DNA of 63,282 bases, counting the filler. It is 5 parts of 5 records of this genome, joined end to end, with 100 filler letters (N's around TTAATTAATTAA, not from the genome) between each part and the next. Parts side by side here need not be neighbours in the genome. Positions count along the whole stretch, not along the records: positions 17,341 to 41,872 come from SRR20825019_1324; 4 more parts are not named here. One strand, given 5' to 3'. How positions within the stretch are numbered: position 1 is the stretch's first letter; each line of letters starts with the position of its first letter. This document shows positions 11,951 through 52,006 of the stretch, piece after piece. The notes below the pieces were generated by a model, which saw nothing but the letters and a program-made list of their open reading frames with translations, was not told where the DNA came from and did not search any database. The position numbers and the translations under genes are program-made.

Positions 11951-12050
11951 NNNNNNNNNNNNNNNNNNNNNNNNNNNNNNNNNNNNNNNNNNNNTTAATT
12001 AATTAANNNNNNNNNNNNNNNNNNNNNNNNNNNNNNNNNNNNNNNNNNNN
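11951..12050. other. Artificial contig spacer
   Basis: N-runs around TTAATTAATTAA (stops in all six frames). Confidence 0.99.
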
Positions 12051-17240: not shown

Positions 17241-17340
17241 NNNNNNNNNNNNNNNNNNNNNNNNNNNNNNNNNNNNNNNNNNNNTTAATTAATTAANNNN
17301 NNNNNNNNNNNNNNNNNNNNNNNNNNNNNNNNNNNNNNNN
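17241..17340. other. Artificial contig spacer
   Basis: N-runs plus TTAATTAATTAA; sequence turns from AT-rich to GC-rich across it. Confidence 0.99.
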
Positions 17341-17460
17341 GATCGGCCTGTCGCCGGTGTTGCGCACCTTCAGTGTCGTGGTCGGATATCCGGCATTGAT
17401 CTCAATGTCGCCCTTGGCGAGAACCAGCCCACCAACCGGTGTTTTCTTTTCATCAGACAT
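17341..17460 (-). CDS. ureB: Urease beta subunit, N-terminal part (3' truncated)
   Basis: MSDEKKTPVGGLVLAKGDIEINAGYPTTTLKVRNTGDRPI; directly follows ureA. Confidence 0.92.
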
Positions 17461-17487
17461 TTGAAATACCCCTCTCGGCAGCGCGGT

Positions 17488-17790
17488 TTACTGAATCGGA
17501 TCGTGAATGGTGACCAGACGGCTGCCATCGGTAAACACGGCCTCCACCTGCACATAGGGGATCATCTCGGCGACCCCCTCCATGATGTCGTCACGCGTGA
17601 TTTCCTTGCGCGCGATCTCCATGACCTCTTCAACGGTCTTTCCGGCGCGTGCGCCGTTGAGCGCCGCCACGGAAATCAGCGAAACCGTTTCGGGATGATT
17701 GAGCTTTAAACCCTGATCCTTGCGCTGTTGCGCGACCTGCGCGAGCGTGTAGATAAGCAGTTTATCGATCTCTCTAGGCGTAAAATGCAT
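17488..17790 (-). CDS. ureA: Urease gamma subunit
   Basis: 100 aa from ATG 17790: [11 protein letters not shown]...GLKLNHPE...[27 protein letters not shown]. Confidence 0.96.
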
Positions 17791-18024
17791 ATGCGTTTCC
17801 CCTGTCAGAATGGCTGAACACGACGACCGTTCGTCATCGTTGAAAACAAGCGGCAGGCAACATCCTGAATGCTCTCCACCCTGCCGCAACCCTTTGTTCA
17901 CGCCCCCGGAAGTGAGCGAAAGAGAACATGGATTACACCCGCATGTGCCGGCTGACCCTGCCGGCGCGGCTTTAAAAGGTAACTCGTATCAGTTTACCAG
18001 TAAACTGAAACTGACCTTCTTTTG

Positions 18025-18044
18025 AACTGTCAGGATTGACAGTT
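18025..18044. promoter_or_regulatory. lux-box-like operator between ureA and the luxR-family gene
   Basis: AACTGTCAGGATTGACAGTT: 20-bp dyad with CTG at 3-5 and CAG at 16-18; contains TTGACA facing the regulator gene. Confidence 0.75.
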
Positions 18045-18095
18045 GCTAGGTTGTGTCGACATGTTGCATCATCCTTACCCATGTGACCGGAATTA

Positions 18096-18815
18096 ATGCT
18101 CAAAGAACTTGCAAACGCTTGCGCCGTGATCGCAAACGCTGAAAGCCTGCCTGATCTGGAGGCTGCTCTTACGAAAGCGATAAATGAGCTGGGTTTCATC
18201 AGCTACAATATCAGCCTGAACCGCAGCGACCCTTTGCAGTTCATGGAAAGGCCGCTTCTTACGTCATGGACGACGCGCGACCTCGATACCTACGTCAATG
18301 ACAGGTGGTTCGACCGTGACCCGCTGATGTCACACCTCAAGCAAAACACGGCGCCCCTCTTCTGGAAACCAGACATGTGGAATGGCACGCCCTATCAGGA
18401 ATATTCCGAATATGTGCGTTACCAGGGTATTGCCGGCGGCGCGACACTGCCGCTGTTTGCCTCGCCGGGTAAATTCAGCGCCATTACCCTGCTGACAATC
18501 GACGGGTCGCTTCATACCCCTGATACGGCACATGCGATTTCCATCCTGACCAGTGTGGCAACCGCGCGTATGACTGCCTTCACCGAAGGCCTGCCCGGTC
18601 AGTACAATATTCACGGTTTCAAGAAGCTTTCAGGACTGCAGGTGGAAATCCTCAGCTGGATCGCAAAAGGAAAAACCAATAGTGAAATCGCCCTGATCGT
18701 CGGTCGCACCGAACGCGCCATCGCCTATCATGTGAGCGAGATACTGGCCAAGATCTCGGTCAGCTCCCGCGCTCAGGCTGCCGCATTCTACGCCGCAATC
18801 GGATTGCGCGACTGA
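18096..18815 (+). CDS. LuxR-family regulator with autoinducer-binding domain (solo; no luxI adjacent)
   Basis: Y...DP...W...G pocket pattern; C-terminal HTH ILSWIAKGKTNSEIALI. Confidence 0.92.
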   Translation: MLKELANACAVIANAESLPDLEAALTKAINELGFISYNISLNRSDPLQFMERPLLTSWTTRDLDTYVNDRWFDRDPLMSHLKQNTAPLFWKPDMWNGTPYQEYSEYVRYQGIAGGATLPLFASPGKFSAITLLTIDGSLHTPDTAHAISILTSVATARMTAFTEGLPGQYNIHGFKKLSGLQVEILSWIAKGKTNSEIALIVGRTERAIAYHVSEILAKISVSSRAQAAAFYAAIGLRD

Positions 18816-18830
18816 TCTTTCCTCAATTGC

Positions 18831-19859
18831 TCAACCGCCCTTCCGGCCCGTATCAGGCGAGGATGGCAGCACCGGCAGCAGCAGGCAGGCAATTCCAATC
18901 CCGCCGATGGTCAGAAGAACCCGGTTGGCGGCAATCGCCAGAGCCCCGGCTTCCGGGGAGAAATTGAATGTCAGGGCGATCGCCGTCAGACAGAAAGACC
19001 AGATGCCATAACGTTTGGCGCCAATCACCAACATCAGAAAAACCAGCGCGCCAACCAGCAGGATATGAAGCCAGGGGGTCGGGGCAAGAAAGCCAAGGAT
19101 AAGACCACCGGCGGCGGCGCCGAGAAGTGTTCCAAGACCCCGCGCCTTCATTCGGTAAACCGTCTCCTGACGCGTTGGTTTTGTAACCCTGAGGCCAGCG
19201 GCCGCCAGCCAACAGGGATGCGAGCCGGGAGCGAAACAGGCCGCCACGCTCCCCAGCAACGATATCGCCGCCATACCGGCGGTGAAACGCCTTTGGGCCG
19301 CATCTTTGAGAAGATCAAGCCGCTTGCTCTCTACCGCTTTTTTGGCAACGGGTATGAAAACCAGCACGAACAGCATCGCCCACAGCGTCCCCAGAAGAAA
19401 GGTCAGCCCGTAGATGACATCGCCGCCTTCGGCAACCTGACCGACGGACAGAAAGAAGGCCAGTGTGGCAAGCGCAACCGGCAGGCGGAGATAGCCGCCT
19501 TTCAGTTCCCCCGCACCTTGTGCAAGCGCGGCCGCCAGCGCGCAGGCGAAGAACGGGCCGGACCCCAGTTCAACGCGACCGCCGGCCATCGCAAACAGGC
19601 TGATAACAACGGCCGCCGATACCAGCACCCTGCCTCTGCCCACCTCGGGCAACCGCGGAAACGAGACCATCATCAGATAAGCACCGAAGGACGCGATACC
19701 GCCGTGAGACGCCTGACCGGCCACAAGCCCCGCCATCCAGGGCAGCACCACCCCAAGTGCCATTGAGAATGCGCCCAGAATTTTCGTCGGTGTCAGATCA
19801 AGAGATGGTTTCAAGAGCATTGTGCCGGTTTGTAAAAGCAGAGACAGCCGCTTGTGCAT
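18831..19859 (-). CDS. FUSC-family (aromatic acid exporter-like) membrane protein
   Basis: Multi-TM; HPCW...R.LGTLLG...RVLLTIGG pattern. Confidence 0.8.
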   Translation of the reverse strand: MHKRLSLLLQTGTMLLKPSLDLTPTKILGAFSMALGVVLPWMAGLVAGQASHGGIASFGAYLMMVSFPRLPEVGRGRVLVSAAVVISLFAMAGGRVELGSGPFFACALAAALAQGAGELKGGYLRLPVALATLAFFLSVGQVAEGGDVIYGLTFLLGTLWAMLFVLVFIPVAKKAVESKRLDLLKDAAQRRFTAGMAAISLLGSVAACFAPGSHPCWLAAAGLRVTKPTRQETVYRMKARGLGTLLGAAAGGLILGFLAPTPWLHILLVGALVFLMLVIGAKRYGIWSFCLTAIALTFNFSPEAGALAIAANRVLLTIGGIGIACLLLPVLPSSPDTGRKGG

Positions 19860-19900
19860 GATCCGGTTTGAAAACGGCCAGAGCCGAACCGCATTCCCGA

Positions 19901-20290
19901 TCAGGAAAGATATCTGGCAAGATGTAAACCTGAAAAAACAAAAACAAGCGAAACCATAACACTGGCGAGTATATACACAATTGCCAGAATGGAATCGCCC
20001 CGCGTCAAGAGGTTCATGTTATCGAGAGAGAATGACGAGAACGTCGTGAAACCTCCGAGAAATCCCGTTACGATCAGCGCCCGGATTTCCGGTGAGTTAT
20101 CGAACTTCTGAGAAATCATCTCCACGGCAAAGCCGATTATGAACGACCCCAGAATATTGACGATCAGGGTTCCCCAGGGAAAATGATCGCCCCAAAGGCG
20201 GGTTGACGCCAGACCGATCATCCAGCGGCAGACCGACCCGGTCGCGCCACCGGCTGCTGTAAGCAGGGCAAGAGACAGAAGATTAACCAA
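19901..20290 (-). CDS. crcB: Fluoride channel Fluc/CrcB
   Basis: GGATGSVCR, FPWGTLIVNILGSF and GFLGGFTTFSSF signatures. Confidence 0.95.
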   Translation of the reverse strand: MVNLLSLALLTAAGGATGSVCRWMIGLASTRLWGDHFPWGTLIVNILGSFIIGFAVEMISQKFDNSPEIRALIVTGFLGGFTTFSSFSLDNMNLLTRGDSILAIVYILASVMVSLVFVFSGLHLARYLS

Positions 20291-20429
20291 AGATCATGCT
20301 CATCTTTTTTGCCGTACCGGCACAGTGAAAGATTGCAGGGTCTGGCTGCCAGCAGGCATGACAATCGAAAGACCTCAGGCAATTCTGACAGCCCTGCGTT
20401 CCCCGGTATCAAAACATGTTCCGGGTTCG

Positions 20430-20457
20430 TGACAACTGTCAGCTCTGACAGTTGTCA
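20430..20457. promoter_or_regulatory. Second lux-box-like operator, upstream of crcB
   Basis: Inverted repeat TGACAACTGTCAG-ct-CTGACAGTTGTCA with perfect 13-bp arms; core AACTGTCAGCTCTGACAGTT (20434-20453) matches 18025-18044 at 17 of 20 positions. Confidence 0.75.
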
Positions 20458-20585
20458 GCGCGCCGAGGCAGATGAAACGCGTGCAGGCTTGCACTGTGGT
20501 TCCCATGTACGCCTTTTGCCCGGCCGGGAATCCAGCGAGACCGCTGACCGGCCATCTCATTTCGTTGATATCCGCAGAAAAACAC

Positions 20586-22274
20586 TCAGCTGATCAGGAC
20601 GATCACAATCCCCAGAAGGGTCAGAATCGTGCTTGATGTGGCATAGCCCACAGAATAGCCGATGGCCGGGATCTGACTTCCGGCGCGGTCGGTGATCATG
20701 CTCAGGGCGGCGGGGGCAGCGCGCGAACCGGCGCAGCAGCCAAGCACGATAGCATCGTCAAAACGGAACAGGTATTTACCGATATAGAGCGATAGAAACA
20801 TGGGCAAGGCAGCCGCAAAAACGGCCCATGCGACAAACACGAAACCAAGTTCCTTCAACCCCGCCACAACGCCCGGACCGGCAGTCAGGCCGACGACTGC
20901 GATAAACATGTTGAGACCGATCGAGCTCATGAACCAGCTCGTCGCGCGCGGAACGCGACCGAAAACGGGGCGGATCGAGCGCAGCCAACCCAGAAGCAGC
21001 CCGACCAGAAGAACACCACCGGCTGTCGAAAGCGTCAGCGGAACCGCGCCGATCTTCAGTGTCAGCGACCCGATCAGGGAACCAATGACGATGGCTGCTC
21101 CGATAAAGGCAACATCTGCACGTTCCGTTTCACGATCGAGATAGCCGAAACTTCCGGCGGCGGCATTGATGTCAGCAGGACGGCCCGTCACGCGGACCAC
21201 GTCGCCGCGAAAAAGCTGGGTTTCCGGCAGGATCGGAATTGAAACCGACATCGCGCCGCGACGAATCTCGGTCAGGAAGATGCCCCGGGTTTCAGGCATC
21301 AGCGCAATCTCTCTCAGGGACTTGCGATGAACGCTCTTTGCCGTGATCAGGATATCGGTGCCCTCGATGGAAACGCCGAGCAGTTCGGGATCGTCCACCT
21401 CCTGCAGCACCTTGCCGACATTGCCCAGCAGCACATCACGTTCACCGGCAATAGCGATGATATCGCCAGCTTCGATCACCATATCGACCGTGGCCTCGAC
21501 AACCGAACCATCACGCCGGATACGGGCGATATACATACGATGATTTTCGAAGAAATGCTCGGTCTGACCGATTGTAAGGCCGGCCACCGGTGCTTGCGGT
21601 TCGATGAGAAAGGCACGCGCGACATATTGGTGCCACGCCTTTTCGCTGTCACGCCCGTCGCCCGCGCCACCGATCCGTCTGGCGTAATCGCGGCAGGCCG
21701 CGGGAAGGTCAATGTTCAGCAGCTTCGGACCGAGAATGCCGAGCATGACAACCGATCCGAATGTACCGATGACATAGCTGATCGAAAAAGCGGCCGGCAG
21801 GATTTGAGTGCTCGCGGCTTTTGCCGACGCCGCCAGAGACGATTGCTCAATAGCGGTTTGCGAAAGGCCAAGAGCCGATGATGTTGTCGTCGAACCGGCA
21901 TAAAGACCCGCAGCAATACCGACGTCATATCCGGCCGCCCTTACCGCAAGATAAACAGAACCGAGGCTTAATCCGCAGACAATCACGGTAAACAGAGCCT
22001 GCTGGAGGCCGCCGGAAAATAACCCCCGGACAAATTGCGGCCCGGCGCTGTATCCAACCGCAAAAAGATAGAACATGAAGAAAATAGTCTTTACATCCGG
22101 GGAAACAGTGATGCCGATCTGGCCAATGACAAGAGCCGCCAGCAACGTGGCAGTCACATCGCCAAGTGAGATTCCGGCAATTTCCACACGACCGAGCGTA
22201 TAGCCGACCAGCAAGGACAGAAACAGCGGAATTTCAACATTCATCCGCAGCGTTGTGAACAGCCAATCCAGCAT
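20586..22274 (-). CDS. aspT: Aspartate:alanine antiporter (AspT/YidE family, two TrkA-C domains)
   Basis: LFAVGYSAGPQFVRG, AAGLYAGSTT, duplicated membrane domains around TrkA-C repeats. Confidence 0.85.
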   Translation of the reverse strand: MLDWLFTTLRMNVEIPLFLSLLVGYTLGRVEIAGISLGDVTATLLAALVIGQIGITVSPDVKTIFFMFYLFAVGYSAGPQFVRGLFSGGLQQALFTVIVCGLSLGSVYLAVRAAGYDVGIAAGLYAGSTTTSSALGLSQTAIEQSSLAASAKAASTQILPAAFSISYVIGTFGSVVMLGILGPKLLNIDLPAACRDYARRIGGAGDGRDSEKAWHQYVARAFLIEPQAPVAGLTIGQTEHFFENHRMYIARIRRDGSVVEATVDMVIEAGDIIAIAGERDVLLGNVGKVLQEVDDPELLGVSIEGTDILITAKSVHRKSLREIALMPETRGIFLTEIRRGAMSVSIPILPETQLFRGDVVRVTGRPADINAAAGSFGYLDRETERADVAFIGAAIVIGSLIGSLTLKIGAVPLTLSTAGGVLLVGLLLGWLRSIRPVFGRVPRATSWFMSSIGLNMFIAVVGLTAGPGVVAGLKELGFVFVAWAVFAAALPMFLSLYIGKYLFRFDDAIVLGCCAGSRAAPAALSMITDRAGSQIPAIGYSVGYATSSTILTLLGIVIVLIS

Positions 22275-22532
22275 GAAAAAGATACTCCGTCGTAACCACT
22301 CCCGAAGCCGGGATCACGACGCCAGTCAAACTGACATCCCGGCTTCATATCCCGTAGCTTACCAATCAGACGCTTGCAATGGGAGACAGACACCGGGCGG
22401 AGATAAAGGCCAGGACCATATCACCGGCGCCTTCGGCCGAGCAAAACCCTTTTCAACCCAGAGTCCCGCTCGGCTTCGAAAGTACCAGCAAGGCCGGCAA
22501 CCCGGCAGGCCGGCAGATGCACCAGCCCTATA

Positions 22533-41872: not shown

Positions 41873-41972
41873 NNNNNNNNNNNNNNNNNNNNNNNNNNNN
41901 NNNNNNNNNNNNNNNNTTAATTAATTAANNNNNNNNNNNNNNNNNNNNNNNNNNNNNNNNNNNNNNNNNNNN
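41873..41972. other. Artificial contig spacer
   Basis: N-runs plus TTAATTAATTAA. Confidence 0.99.
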
Positions 41973-47531: not shown

Positions 47532-48779
47532 TCAGCCCCATTTTTTCAGCGAGGCGGCGAGTTCCTTGTGGGTGGCGGCATGGGCTTGAAGCGTCTGCCC
47601 GGAGGCCGCCGCCTCCCAGGCCTGACGGATCGCGCGTACGCCGGCACCCGGACCGCCCGGATGGCCATGAATGCCGCCGCCGCCGAGATACATCAGGTCG
47701 AGCGTGCGGCCGGTGCGCAGATAGGTCTCGACCGCCTGTCCGCCCCATTGCCCCGAGCAGACCACCGGTAGCGGCCGGTCGTCCTCTGAGAAGATCGGCG
47801 TCATCACGTCATGGAAGGATTTGACGAAGCTTTCGTCGGGTTCCCAGTATTTGGCGCGGATGCCGTTGATCTGGAACTGGTCGACGCCGAGCAGCCGCCA
47901 GATCTTCTGATAGGCGGTGAATTCCATGCCCAGCGCCGGGTGGCGGGTCAGGATATCCCAGCCGTTACGGTGGGCGTGGAGACATAAAGCGGAGCGTTTG
48001 CGCAGGAACGACATGCCGCCATGGCCGATCGAGTTGATATTGACGACAGCCGCATTGCCGCTGTTTTCCATCACGTAGTCGTGGTTTTCCATCATCGTGT
48101 CGGGATCGGCGGACGAGATGCCGAAGGCATACATCACCTGCTTTCCGGTCCGCTCGGCATGCTCCCTGATCACCGGCATGATCGCGTCGACCCGCGCCGT
48201 GAGCGGCGCATAGGCCGGGTTCATCATCTTCTCGTCGTCCTTGATGAAGTCGACACCGGCCTCGCAGAGCGTGCGCACCACGTCCGCCGTGTCCTCCGGC
48301 GTCAGCCCGAGCGAGGGCTTGATGATCGAGGCGATCATCGGGCCGCTGTCGACGCCCATCAGCCGGCGCGATCCGGCAATGCCGAATTGCGGGCCGGGAT
48401 GGCAGGACCATGCGTCGGGAAGGTCGATATCCATGACGCGGATGCCGGACAGTCCGCGCGCGGCAAACACGCCGCCGATCGCGATGGTCATCAGCGCCGC
48501 GATATCGGTGCCGATCGCTTCCAGCGGATAGGCGATCGTCACGTCGGCGCGATGGTATGGTCCGTTGTCGCTCGTGTCGGGAAAGCCGGGGGTCTCGGTA
48601 TCGGAAAGCGGCACGATCGTCTCGACCCGGGCCGCGCAGCGTTTGCGCACCGCATCGGTCTCGCCCGGAAGTTCGGTGAAGGTGCCGGTCGACTGGTCGG
48701 AGGCGATTTTGGCGGCCATCGCCTCGATGCTGCCGGCGCATTCGATGCGATAGGTCACCCGGATAAAATCGTCGTTCAT
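47532..48779 (-). CDS. oiaX: RuBisCO-like protein (form IV), probably 3-oxo-isoapionate-4-phosphate transcarboxylase/hydrolase type
   Basis: IIKPSLGL, DFIKDDE, HAHRNG, SGQW, GGGIHGHP; no small subunit; adjacent to an apiose-type transporter. Confidence 0.75.
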   Translation of the reverse strand: MNDDFIRVTYRIECAGSIEAMAAKIASDQSTGTFTELPGETDAVRKRCAARVETIVPLSDTETPGFPDTSDNGPYHRADVTIAYPLEAIGTDIAALMTIAIGGVFAARGLSGIRVMDIDLPDAWSCHPGPQFGIAGSRRLMGVDSGPMIASIIKPSLGLTPEDTADVVRTLCEAGVDFIKDDEKMMNPAYAPLTARVDAIMPVIREHAERTGKQVMYAFGISSADPDTMMENHDYVMENSGNAAVVNINSIGHGGMSFLRKRSALCLHAHRNGWDILTRHPALGMEFTAYQKIWRLLGVDQFQINGIRAKYWEPDESFVKSFHDVMTPIFSEDDRPLPVVCSGQWGGQAVETYLRTGRTLDLMYLGGGGIHGHPGGPGAGVRAIRQAWEAAASGQTLQAHAATHKELAASLKKWG

Positions 48780-51906: not shown

Positions 51907-52006
51907 NNNNNNNNNNNNNNNNNNNNNNNNNNNNNNNNNNNNNNNNNNNNTTAATTAATTAANNNNNNNNNNNNNNNNNNNNNNNNNNNNNNNNNNNNNN
52001 NNNNNN
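51907..52006. other. Artificial contig spacer
   Basis: N-runs plus TTAATTAATTAA. Confidence 0.99.

What the first reader, a model, noticed from the sequence alone, without database searches (positions are those of the whole stretch)
17341..22274. LuxR-solo regulon linking urease with a fluoride channel and FUSC exporter through twin lux boxes
Seen: AACTGTCA-N4-TGACAGTT occurs twice, at 18025-18044 (between the divergent ureA and luxR-family genes) and 20434-20453 (upstream of crcB-FUSC). Both have lux-box geometry, and a -10-like hexamer lies 20 nt downstream of each on the target strand (TTTACT, TTTGAT). The first box contains TTGACA facing the regulator gene. Known: LuxR proteins activate from 20-bp boxes near -42; urease gives acid resistance and is inhibited by fluoride; HF enters cells at low pH; AspT-type antiporters serve decarboxylation cycles. 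Inference: a signal-controlled acid and weak-acid survival island in which Fluc protects urease, with autorepression of the regulator. I know of no description of this arrangement.
Basis: partly seen in the sequence, partly recalled or inferred. Interest (0 to 1): 0.82.

Follow-up and report, generated by a model that had tools for sequence, protein, structure and literature searches.

The report
LuxR solo controlling Martelella acid defences
A lone quorum-sensing-type regulator in Martelella bacteria sits beside a DNA palindrome that recurs in front of urease, nickel-uptake and other acid-defence genes in related genomes; it likely switches them on in response to a still unknown signal, and the fluoride-channel gene is an extra found in only one lineage.

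Summary
AACTGTCA-N4-TGACAGTT occurs exactly twice in the window, on a 24.5-kb Martelella-like contig.

The same box occurs at 25 sites in 8 of 14 Martelella genomes. Those are exactly the 8 that carry this luxR; the other 6 have none. All 25 sites lie before luxR, an extra urease operon, nickel ABC genes, FUSC/crcB, mdtNOP, clcA, gadB, oxalate decarboxylase or a linear amide hydrolase. A -10-like TA lies 22-23 nt past the box in 12 of 20 distinct target flanks, which fits activation. On the luxR side the box holds the -35 (7 of 7), which fits autorepression. Distant homologues keep AACTG-N10-CAGTT upstream of themselves but beside other genes, which ties the box to the LuxR.

- The regulon is wider than two boxes.
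- The boxed crcB is a second copy, present in only 2 of 6 genomes with this urease.
- Its promoter has the luxR-type geometry, so 'Fluc protects urease' is not supported.
- The window's aspT has no good box.

The AHL-pocket tryptophan is replaced by D/E/Q, and no LuxI was found in the carriers, so the signal is probably not a classical AHL. Binding, sign and ligand are untested.

The parts
17341..17460 (-). 5' part of ureB, cut by the contig end; relatives continue ureC-E-F-G-D, urea transporter, amt, citMHS-like gene, mscS and boxed nikA-E
   Evidence: synteny with G013/G009 at 81-82% over 17341-22304; annotation
17488..17790 (-). ureA, urease gamma subunit of the extra (PRK13309-type) urease operon
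   Evidence: 96% identical to the island UreA of G011; UreC of that operon passes PRK13309
17997..18002 (-). predicted -10 of the ureA promoter (TACTGG, 23 nt past the box)
   Evidence: CAGTAA conserved in window, G013 and G009; offset enrichment; inferred
18025..18044 (.). box 1, 20-bp palindrome between divergent ureA and luxR; holds TTGACA (18036-18041), the predicted -35 of luxR
   Evidence: identical in G013 and G009; TTGACA in 7 of 7 luxR-facing boxes
18060..18065 (+). predicted -10 of the luxR promoter (CATGTT, 18 nt after TTGACA)
   Evidence: A2 and T6 at this offset in 7 of 7 luxR flanks; inferred
18096..18815 (+). LuxR-family regulator, 239 aa, autoinducer-binding plus GerE domains; D62 in place of the AHL-pocket tryptophan
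18831..19859 (-). FUSC_2-family membrane protein, convergent on luxR with a 15-bp gap; faces a box in 4 other genomes without crcB
19901..20290 (-). crcB (Fluc fluoride channel), extra copy specific to this lineage
   Evidence: no Rfam riboswitch at the gathering score on this contig
20385..20397 (-). conserved half-site GCAGGGCTGTCAG in the crcB leader; possible weak second operator
   Evidence: 13 of 13 nt identical in window, G013 and G009; role inferred
   Evidence: ATGTTTTGAT conserved 3 of 3
20434..20453 (.). box 2, palindrome between the aspT stop and crcB-FUSC
   Evidence: conserved in G013 and G009 in otherwise diverged DNA
20586..22274 (-). AspT/YidE/YbjL antiporter-like gene; part of the syntenic block but with no good box upstream in the window
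   Evidence: in G013/G009 it follows a boxed CBAH gene

Best explanation
The palindrome RACTGTCA-N4-TGACAGTY recurs in front of urease, nickel-uptake and other acid-defence operons in the Martelella genomes that carry this LuxR solo; the LuxR dimer likely binds it, likely activates those operons from about -43, and likely represses its own promoter. Shown: box, genes, conservation, co-occurrence, spacing. Inferred steps: (1) a LuxR dimer binds the box. (2) Where a -10 starts 22-23 nt past the box (ureA here; nikA, aspT/clcA, FUSC, gadB elsewhere) it recruits sigma-70 polymerase as class II LuxR activators do. (3) Urease with its urea, ammonium and nickel transporters makes ammonia, and GadB, the AspT-like antiporter, ClC and oxalate decarboxylase consume or balance protons. 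(4) At luxR the box covers the -35, giving negative feedback. (5) The trigger is probably a polar non-AHL small molecule, since the lactone-binding Trp is D/E/Q. The crcB-FUSC unit is a lineage-specific recruit under the same box, with luxR-like promoter geometry, so it is more likely damped than co-induced with urease.
For: Box in 8 of 14 Martelella genomes, luxR orthologue in the same 8, and 1 reversed-pattern control hit in all 14 (Fisher p=3.3e-4). All 25 sites map to promoter regions of luxR or of the listed genes; 4 of 25 overlap only over-long ORF starts. The extra urease is in 6 of 14 genomes, all luxR-positive and all boxed. TA at +22/+23 in 12 of 20 distinct target flanks; 0 of 10,000 shuffles reached 12 at any offset. 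A at +23/+24 in 17 of 20. TTGACA-N18-xAxxxT in 7 of 7 luxR flanks. AACTG-N10-CAGTT (at most 1 mismatch) just upstream of 6 of 14 non-Martelella homologue loci examined (5 independent genera), with no urease found by tblastn in the named loci; background is 8 of 886 tiles, 7 of them these same sites. The box matches the RpaR operator at 13 of 20 positions (operator; my count). The core-genome ytcA promoter has a strong box in 3 of 8 luxR-positive genomes, a weak one in 2, and none scoring 10 or more in the 6 luxR-negative genomes.
Against: No binding, transcript or mutant data; only contigs were available, which cannot show starts. Box and luxR mostly lie in one island, so co-occurrence is partly linkage, and the genomes are kin. 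Boxes persist where luxR is 5'-deleted (G001) or frameshifted (G009). G004 has no box before its luxR. 3 of 8 luxR-positive genomes lack the ytcA box, and gadB is boxed in only 1 of 14. A second conserved -10-like element at +26 in luxR flanks (A2 in 7 of 7, T6 in 4 of 7) would allow positive autoregulation. 8 of 14 distant loci have no such upstream site. Reported growth pH ranges do not separate Martelella species (PMC8401316 Table 1).
Confidence: 0.72

Rival explanations
1. One reading: the LuxR co-activates urease and crcB-FUSC so that Fluc exports fluoride entering as HF at low pH and protects the urease.
For: Box 2 is conserved before crcB in 3 of 3 members of this lineage. No fluoride riboswitch on the contig. 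Fluoride enters by weak-acid accumulation and is linked to pH homeostasis (PMC11139923 passages). Fluoride inhibition of urease is recalled, not checked.
Against: 4 of 6 genomes with the boxed urease lack the extra crcB, and all 14 have a housekeeping crcB. Both distinct crcB flanks are among the 3 of 20 that lack A at +23/+24, and they share the luxR-type offset.
Confidence: 0.15
2. The LuxR binds the boxes but with other signs: positive autoregulation through the +26 element, or apo-protein binding released by ligand (EsaR/YenR-like, recalled), so that the signal switches acid genes off.
For: Second conserved element at +26 in luxR flanks. Several distant homologues have TA at +21/+22 toward their luxR. 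Ligand-released LuxR solos exist (PMC4338825 passage).
Against: TTGACA is kept in 7 of 7 luxR-facing boxes with a matching -10 at 18 nt, whereas most target-facing boxes read CTGACA.
Confidence: 0.25
3. Another regulator (in the island or core genome) binds the palindrome, and luxR is only one more target.
For: Boxes remain intact in G009 (frameshifted luxR) and nearly so in G001 (truncated luxR). NikR is encoded in several islands.
Against: No box in the 6 luxR-negative genomes. Outside the known carriers, 9 genomes of a 401-genome family sample have single hits, about the reversed-control rate. Variant boxes follow distant luxR homologues into other gene contexts. nikA promoters carry a separate GTATGA-N16-TCATAC element (seen; assignment to NikR recalled).
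Confidence: 0.08
4. A classical AHL eavesdropping receptor like SdiA that pre-arms acid defence when neighbours make AHLs.
For: Y66, D75, P76, W90 and G115 are kept. The fold matches TraR, QscR, LasR and SdiA. SdiA raises E. coli acid tolerance through gadW/gadY (PMC7286202 abstract). No LuxI in the 8 carriers, but LuxI in 2 other Martelella genomes.
Against: The W57 position is D, E or Q in 13 of 13 close homologues and D in 13 of 23 at 30-45% identity.
Confidence: 0.25

Closest known systems
SdiA of E. coli (LuxR solo acting on acid resistance)
   Same: LuxR solo with an autoinducer domain linked to glutamate-dependent acid tolerance (PMC7286202, abstract read)
   Different: Far below the SdiA family cut-off (46 vs 350 bits). 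SdiA acts through gadW/gadY regulators and keeps all pocket residues (PMC4338825 passage). Here boxes sit directly before urease, nickel and antiporter operons, and W57 is lost.
RpaR and its operator ACCTGTCCGATCGGACAGTA (Rhodopseudomonas palustris)
   Same: 20-bp palindrome with CTGTC-N6-GACAG core, 13 of 20 positions identical (operator text seen in bioRxiv 10.64898/2026.05.13.724834)
   Different: RpaR responds to p-coumaroyl-HSL and is paired with a LuxI (recalled). No protein comparison with RpaR was run.
Brucella ure2 / Yersinia-type urease clusters
   Same: A second urease cluster ureABCEFGD plus urea transporter and nickel uptake tied to low-pH survival (PMC2868824, abstract read); UreC of relatives passes PRK13309
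   Different: Brucella uses an ECF-type nikKMLQO and its ure2 urease is not the active one. Martelella has an ABC-type nik operon, amt, and a LuxR box. No LuxR control is mentioned in that abstract.
Plant-responsive PAB LuxR solos (OryR, XccR, PipR, NesR)
   Same: LuxR solos with an altered W57 that sense non-AHL signals (PMC10134790 passages)
   Different: PAB solos have W57M and Y61W and flank pip genes. Here W57 is D/E/Q, Y61 is kept, and the flanking genes are not pip.

Membership tests
QS-type LuxR family | N-terminal autoinducer-binding domain plus C-terminal GerE HTH | tested here: met
   PF03472 47 bits (cut-off 23), PF00196 43 bits; model pLDDT 91, best PDB matches TraR/QscR/LasR/SdiA
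LuxR solo | No cognate LuxI nearby or in the genome | tested here: met
   PF00765 found in 0 of 8 luxR-carrying Martelella genomes, 2 of 14 overall; none in the gene maps. The window's own genome is not held, so this rests on relatives.
LuxR solo | 20-bp palindromic lux-box-like site in target promoters | tested here: met
   CTG-N10-CAG palindrome at 25 promoter sites; sequence feature only
LuxR solo | Protein binds the box and changes transcription | not testable with these tools
   needs EMSA, ChIP or reporters
AHL-binding LuxR | Six pocket residues W57, Y61, D70, P71, W85, G113 (TraR numbering) | tested here: not met
   5 of 6 kept; W57 position is D62 (alignment to LasR; columns; residue list; TraR-LasR equivalence recalled)
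AHL-binding LuxR | HTH residues E178, L182, G188 | tested here: not met
   L186 and G192 kept; the E178 position is Q182 by the LasR alignment (numbering equivalence recalled)
PAB LuxR solos (OryR/PipR) | W57M and Y61W, adjacent pip gene | tested here: not met
   D62 and Y66; flanking genes are ureA and FUSC
SdiA | PRK10188 score over cut-off; yecC-sdiA-yecF context | tested here: not met
   46.3 vs 350 bits; different context
Class II LuxR-activated promoter | Box centred near -42.5 (recalled), abutting the -35 | tested here: inconclusive
   -10-like TA at +22/+23 in 12 of 20 flanks, giving a centre near -43/-44; no start sites mapped
AspT/AspD aspartate decarboxylation cycle | Partner aspartate 4-decarboxylase gene | tested here: not met
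   TIGR03801 over cut-off in 0 of 14 genomes; glutamate decarboxylase in 14 of 14
Fluoride-riboswitch-controlled crcB | Fluoride riboswitch in the leader | tested here: not met
   no Rfam match at the gathering score on the contig

The most novel reading that the evidence does not exclude
An undescribed LuxR-solo subfamily whose autoinducer pocket (Trp replaced by Asp/Glu/Gln, rich in Tyr/Trp) has been rewired to sense protons, an amine or a host metabolite. It carries its own AACTG-N10-CAGTT operator as a portable module and, in Martelella, has become the direct master switch of a whole acid-resistance regulon, even taking a fluoride channel away from riboswitch control.
Probability: 0.25. 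Interest if true: 0.75.

Novelty: new variant of a known kind. Interest (0 to 1): 0.5.

Why it matters
Most LuxR solos have no known operator, targets or ligand. Here comparative sequence gives a precise operator, a coherent target set and a pocket change in cultured, named Martelella species, so a box-reporter screen can identify the signal. It would also be a case of a quorum-sensing-type protein controlling urease and other acid-defence operons directly, which the literature searches listed in the report did not turn up.

Tried and rejected
The window's own genome is not held, so there was no genome-wide scan of this strain.

Second palindrome TCAGTTTACCAGTAAACTGA at 17989-18008: not conserved in G013/G009, rejected as a part.

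A site GGATGTCA-GTT-TGACTGG at about 22322-22339 before aspT: spacer one base short, absent in G013, not among PWM hits of 8 or more; not counted.

A loose pattern with 2 mismatches gave 12-23 hits per genome, including luxR-negative ones (42 rows not listed): noise, with no sign of a large unlinked regulon.

The generic sigma-70 and terminator scan was at chance level and found no terminator between FUSC and luxR.

The metagenome scan (31 of 64 parts read) gave no further Martelella-type locus; best identity 39%. The plasmid search gave only 40% homologues with other neighbours. The ESM Atlas gave only generic LuxR clusters.

RNA run X12 holds two short near-identical contigs, which is no evidence of expression.

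Earlier findings of the scan: nothing by sequence or by words.

Growth pH ranges of type strains do not discriminate. No complex prediction was run.
Full report
Observation. The window is five contigs joined by N spacers; the finding occupies the left end of a 24.5-kb contig (17341-41872, GC 57%) that breaks inside ureB. The pattern AACTGTCA-N4-TGACAGTT has two exact matches, at 18025 and 20434, and no others with up to 3 mismatches; shuffles average 0.19. The genes are ureA, a LuxR with autoinducer-binding and GerE domains, a FUSC_2 protein, crcB and an AspT-like antiporter. The LuxR is 90% identical to a protein named from Martelella sp. AD-3 and 56-63% identical to other relatives, several named from Martelella. 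One contig of run X2 spans the stretch and may be its source; near-identical pieces occur in oil-field or crude-oil metagenomes of two studies.

The box across the genus. Of 14 Martelella genomes, 8 have the box (at most 1 mismatch from RACTGTCA-N4-TGACAGTY, 25 sites; the reversed control gives 1 site in all). The same 8 have the luxR orthologue and the other 6 have neither (Fisher p=3.3e-4, inflated by linkage and kinship). In a 401-genome family sample, 12 genomes matched a stricter pattern: 3 known carriers and 9 others with single hits, about the rate of the reversed control. All 25 sites were mapped, and each lies upstream of a gene; 4 overlap only over-long ORF starts. Targets are ureA (6 of 6 genomes with the extra urease), nikA (7 genomes), luxR (6 of 8), FUSC (4, divergent from ureA) or crcB-FUSC (2), ytcA-mdtNOP, clcA, mscS, gadB, an amidohydrolase, oxalate decarboxylase and a choloylglycine-hydrolase-family gene. 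Weaker conserved sites precede aspT and clcA. All 14 genomes have a housekeeping urease; the extra one (PRK13309 type, with urea transporter and amt) occurs only in luxR carriers. That these genes serve acid resistance is established knowledge for urease, Gad, ClC and oxalate decarboxylase (recalled; for a ure2-type cluster see the PMC2868824 abstract). The window block 17341-22304 is 81-82% identical and collinear with G013 and G009.

Is the LuxR the binder? Fourteen non-Martelella loci with 31-42% identical homologues were examined. Six (five genera: Ponticoccus, Nitratireductor, Aminobacter, Paracoccus, Cereibacter) have AACTG-N10-CAGTT with at most 1 mismatch 60-115 nt upstream of the luxR-like gene; eight do not. 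Five still more distant loci (L012-L016) have none. Background was 8 of 886 tiles, 7 being those same sites. Their neighbours are giant Ig-like or DUF11 proteins, a wecB-N4-receptor glycan cluster or GGDEF genes, not urease. So the palindrome follows the regulator rather than the cargo. It matches the RpaR operator at 13 of 20 positions. Against: boxes survive in G009, where luxR is frameshifted, and in G001, where it is 5'-deleted, and G004 has no box before its luxR. The core-genome ytcA promoter is a partly unlinked test: a strong box in 3 of 8 carriers, a weak one in 2, none in 3, and none scoring 10 or more in the 6 non-carriers. gadB is present in 14 of 14 genomes but boxed in only one.

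Sign of control. Among 20 distinct target-facing flanks (36 before removing near-duplicates), 12 have TA starting 22 or 23 nt past the box; no shuffle of 10,000 reached that at any offset. Seventeen have A at +23/+24 (offset chosen after seeing the data). Many alphaproteobacterial promoters lack the -7 T (PMC8407463 abstract), so TA alone is a fair mark. This puts the box centre near -43/-44, the class II activator position (recalled). All 7 luxR-facing boxes contain TTGACA with xAxxxT 18 nt later, so a bound dimer would cover the -35. A second element at +26 leaves positive feedback open. The crcB flanks lack the +23/+24 A and have the luxR-type element (CATGTT or TATGTT) plus a conserved half-site downstream. 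crcB-FUSC is therefore under the box but possibly with the opposite sign to urease.

Fluoride claim. All 14 genomes have a housekeeping crcB. The boxed copy is found only in G009, G013 and the window, so 4 of 6 genomes with the boxed urease do without it. There is no riboswitch on the contig. HF entry at low pH makes an extra Fluc sensible in an acid regulon (PMC11139923 passages), but nothing here ties it to urease protection. The window's aspT follows a transketolase gene and has no good box. No aspartate decarboxylase passed the cut-off in 14 genomes, so a glutamate/GABA role with GadB is the likelier guess (inference).

Signal. No LuxI was found in the 8 carriers. Five of six pocket residues are kept, but the W57 position is D62: D, E or Q in 13 of 13 close homologues. 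This is neither the AHL pattern nor the plant-responsive M57/W61 pattern (passages of PMC10134790 and PMC4338825). The model is a confident LuxR fold. Because relatives wire the same regulator to surface genes, a host- or neighbour-derived polar molecule is more likely than pH itself (inference).

Literature. Ten searches of the open library, including 'LuxR solo'+'urease', 'Martelella'+'urease' and LuxR+acid stress+urease operon, listed no description of this system. 'Martelella' and 'urease' do not occur in the main text of the 2023 LuxR-solo survey, and 'urease' does not occur in the 2015 one. Their supplements were not read and may list the protein; subscription papers are not covered. Papers seen: abstracts of PMC7286202, PMC2868824 and PMC8407463; passages of PMC10134790, PMC4338825, PMC11139923, PMC8401316, PMC6478669 and the bioRxiv preprint; the rest as listings only. 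M. soudanensis, which has a homologue, is urease-positive, and M. limonii, which has luxR but no extra urease (G004), is urease-negative; growth pH ranges are alike across species.

Verdict. A real, conserved operator and a likely LuxR-solo acid-defence regulon confined, in the genomes searched, to part of Martelella. Interest 0.5.

Noticed in passing
window 11951-12050, 17241-17340, 41873-41972, 51907-52006: N spacers join five contigs of GC 33-65%, i.e. different organisms; genes left of 17341 are unrelated to the finding.
   Followed up: yes
L003:10001-10562 and L095:9509-9613 (G001): G001 holds two luxR remnants: a 5'-deleted copy with the urease block gone, and a 3' scrap beside the boxed nikA. 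The island decays and luxR has been moved or duplicated.
   Followed up: partly
L005 (plasmid record OY781108.2): The whole regulon lies next to repABC and an integrase on a plasmid, so it can be mobile.
   Followed up: no
L005, L095, L114, L118, L119, upstream of nikA: GTATGA-N16-TCATAC palindrome downstream of the LuxR box, a NikR-type operator (motif recalled), suggesting dual control of nickel uptake.
   Followed up: no
L001:376-11739, L007:1208-9391, L002:3696-11554: Distant homologues with variant boxes face giant Ig-like or DUF11 surface proteins or a wecB-N4-receptor glycan cluster; the L001 luxR reads with an in-frame stop.
   Followed up: partly
L248-L257: A gadB-DUF900-amidohydrolase-outer membrane protein-ytcA-mdtN cluster is near-universal in Martelella, often with CBAH, yrhK and aspT, and no gadC-like neighbour was recognised.
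   Followed up: partly
window 18815-18831: luxR and crcB-FUSC converge with a 15-bp gap and no terminator-like site, so read-through could be antisense.
   Followed up: no
window 47532-48779: 415-aa ORF on another contig that looks like a RuBisCO-like protein (recalled resemblance, not scanned).
   Followed up: no
L012:11489-12214: Rifampin ADP-ribosyltransferase domain near tandem LuxR homologues in a Rhizobium tropici contig.
   Followed up: no
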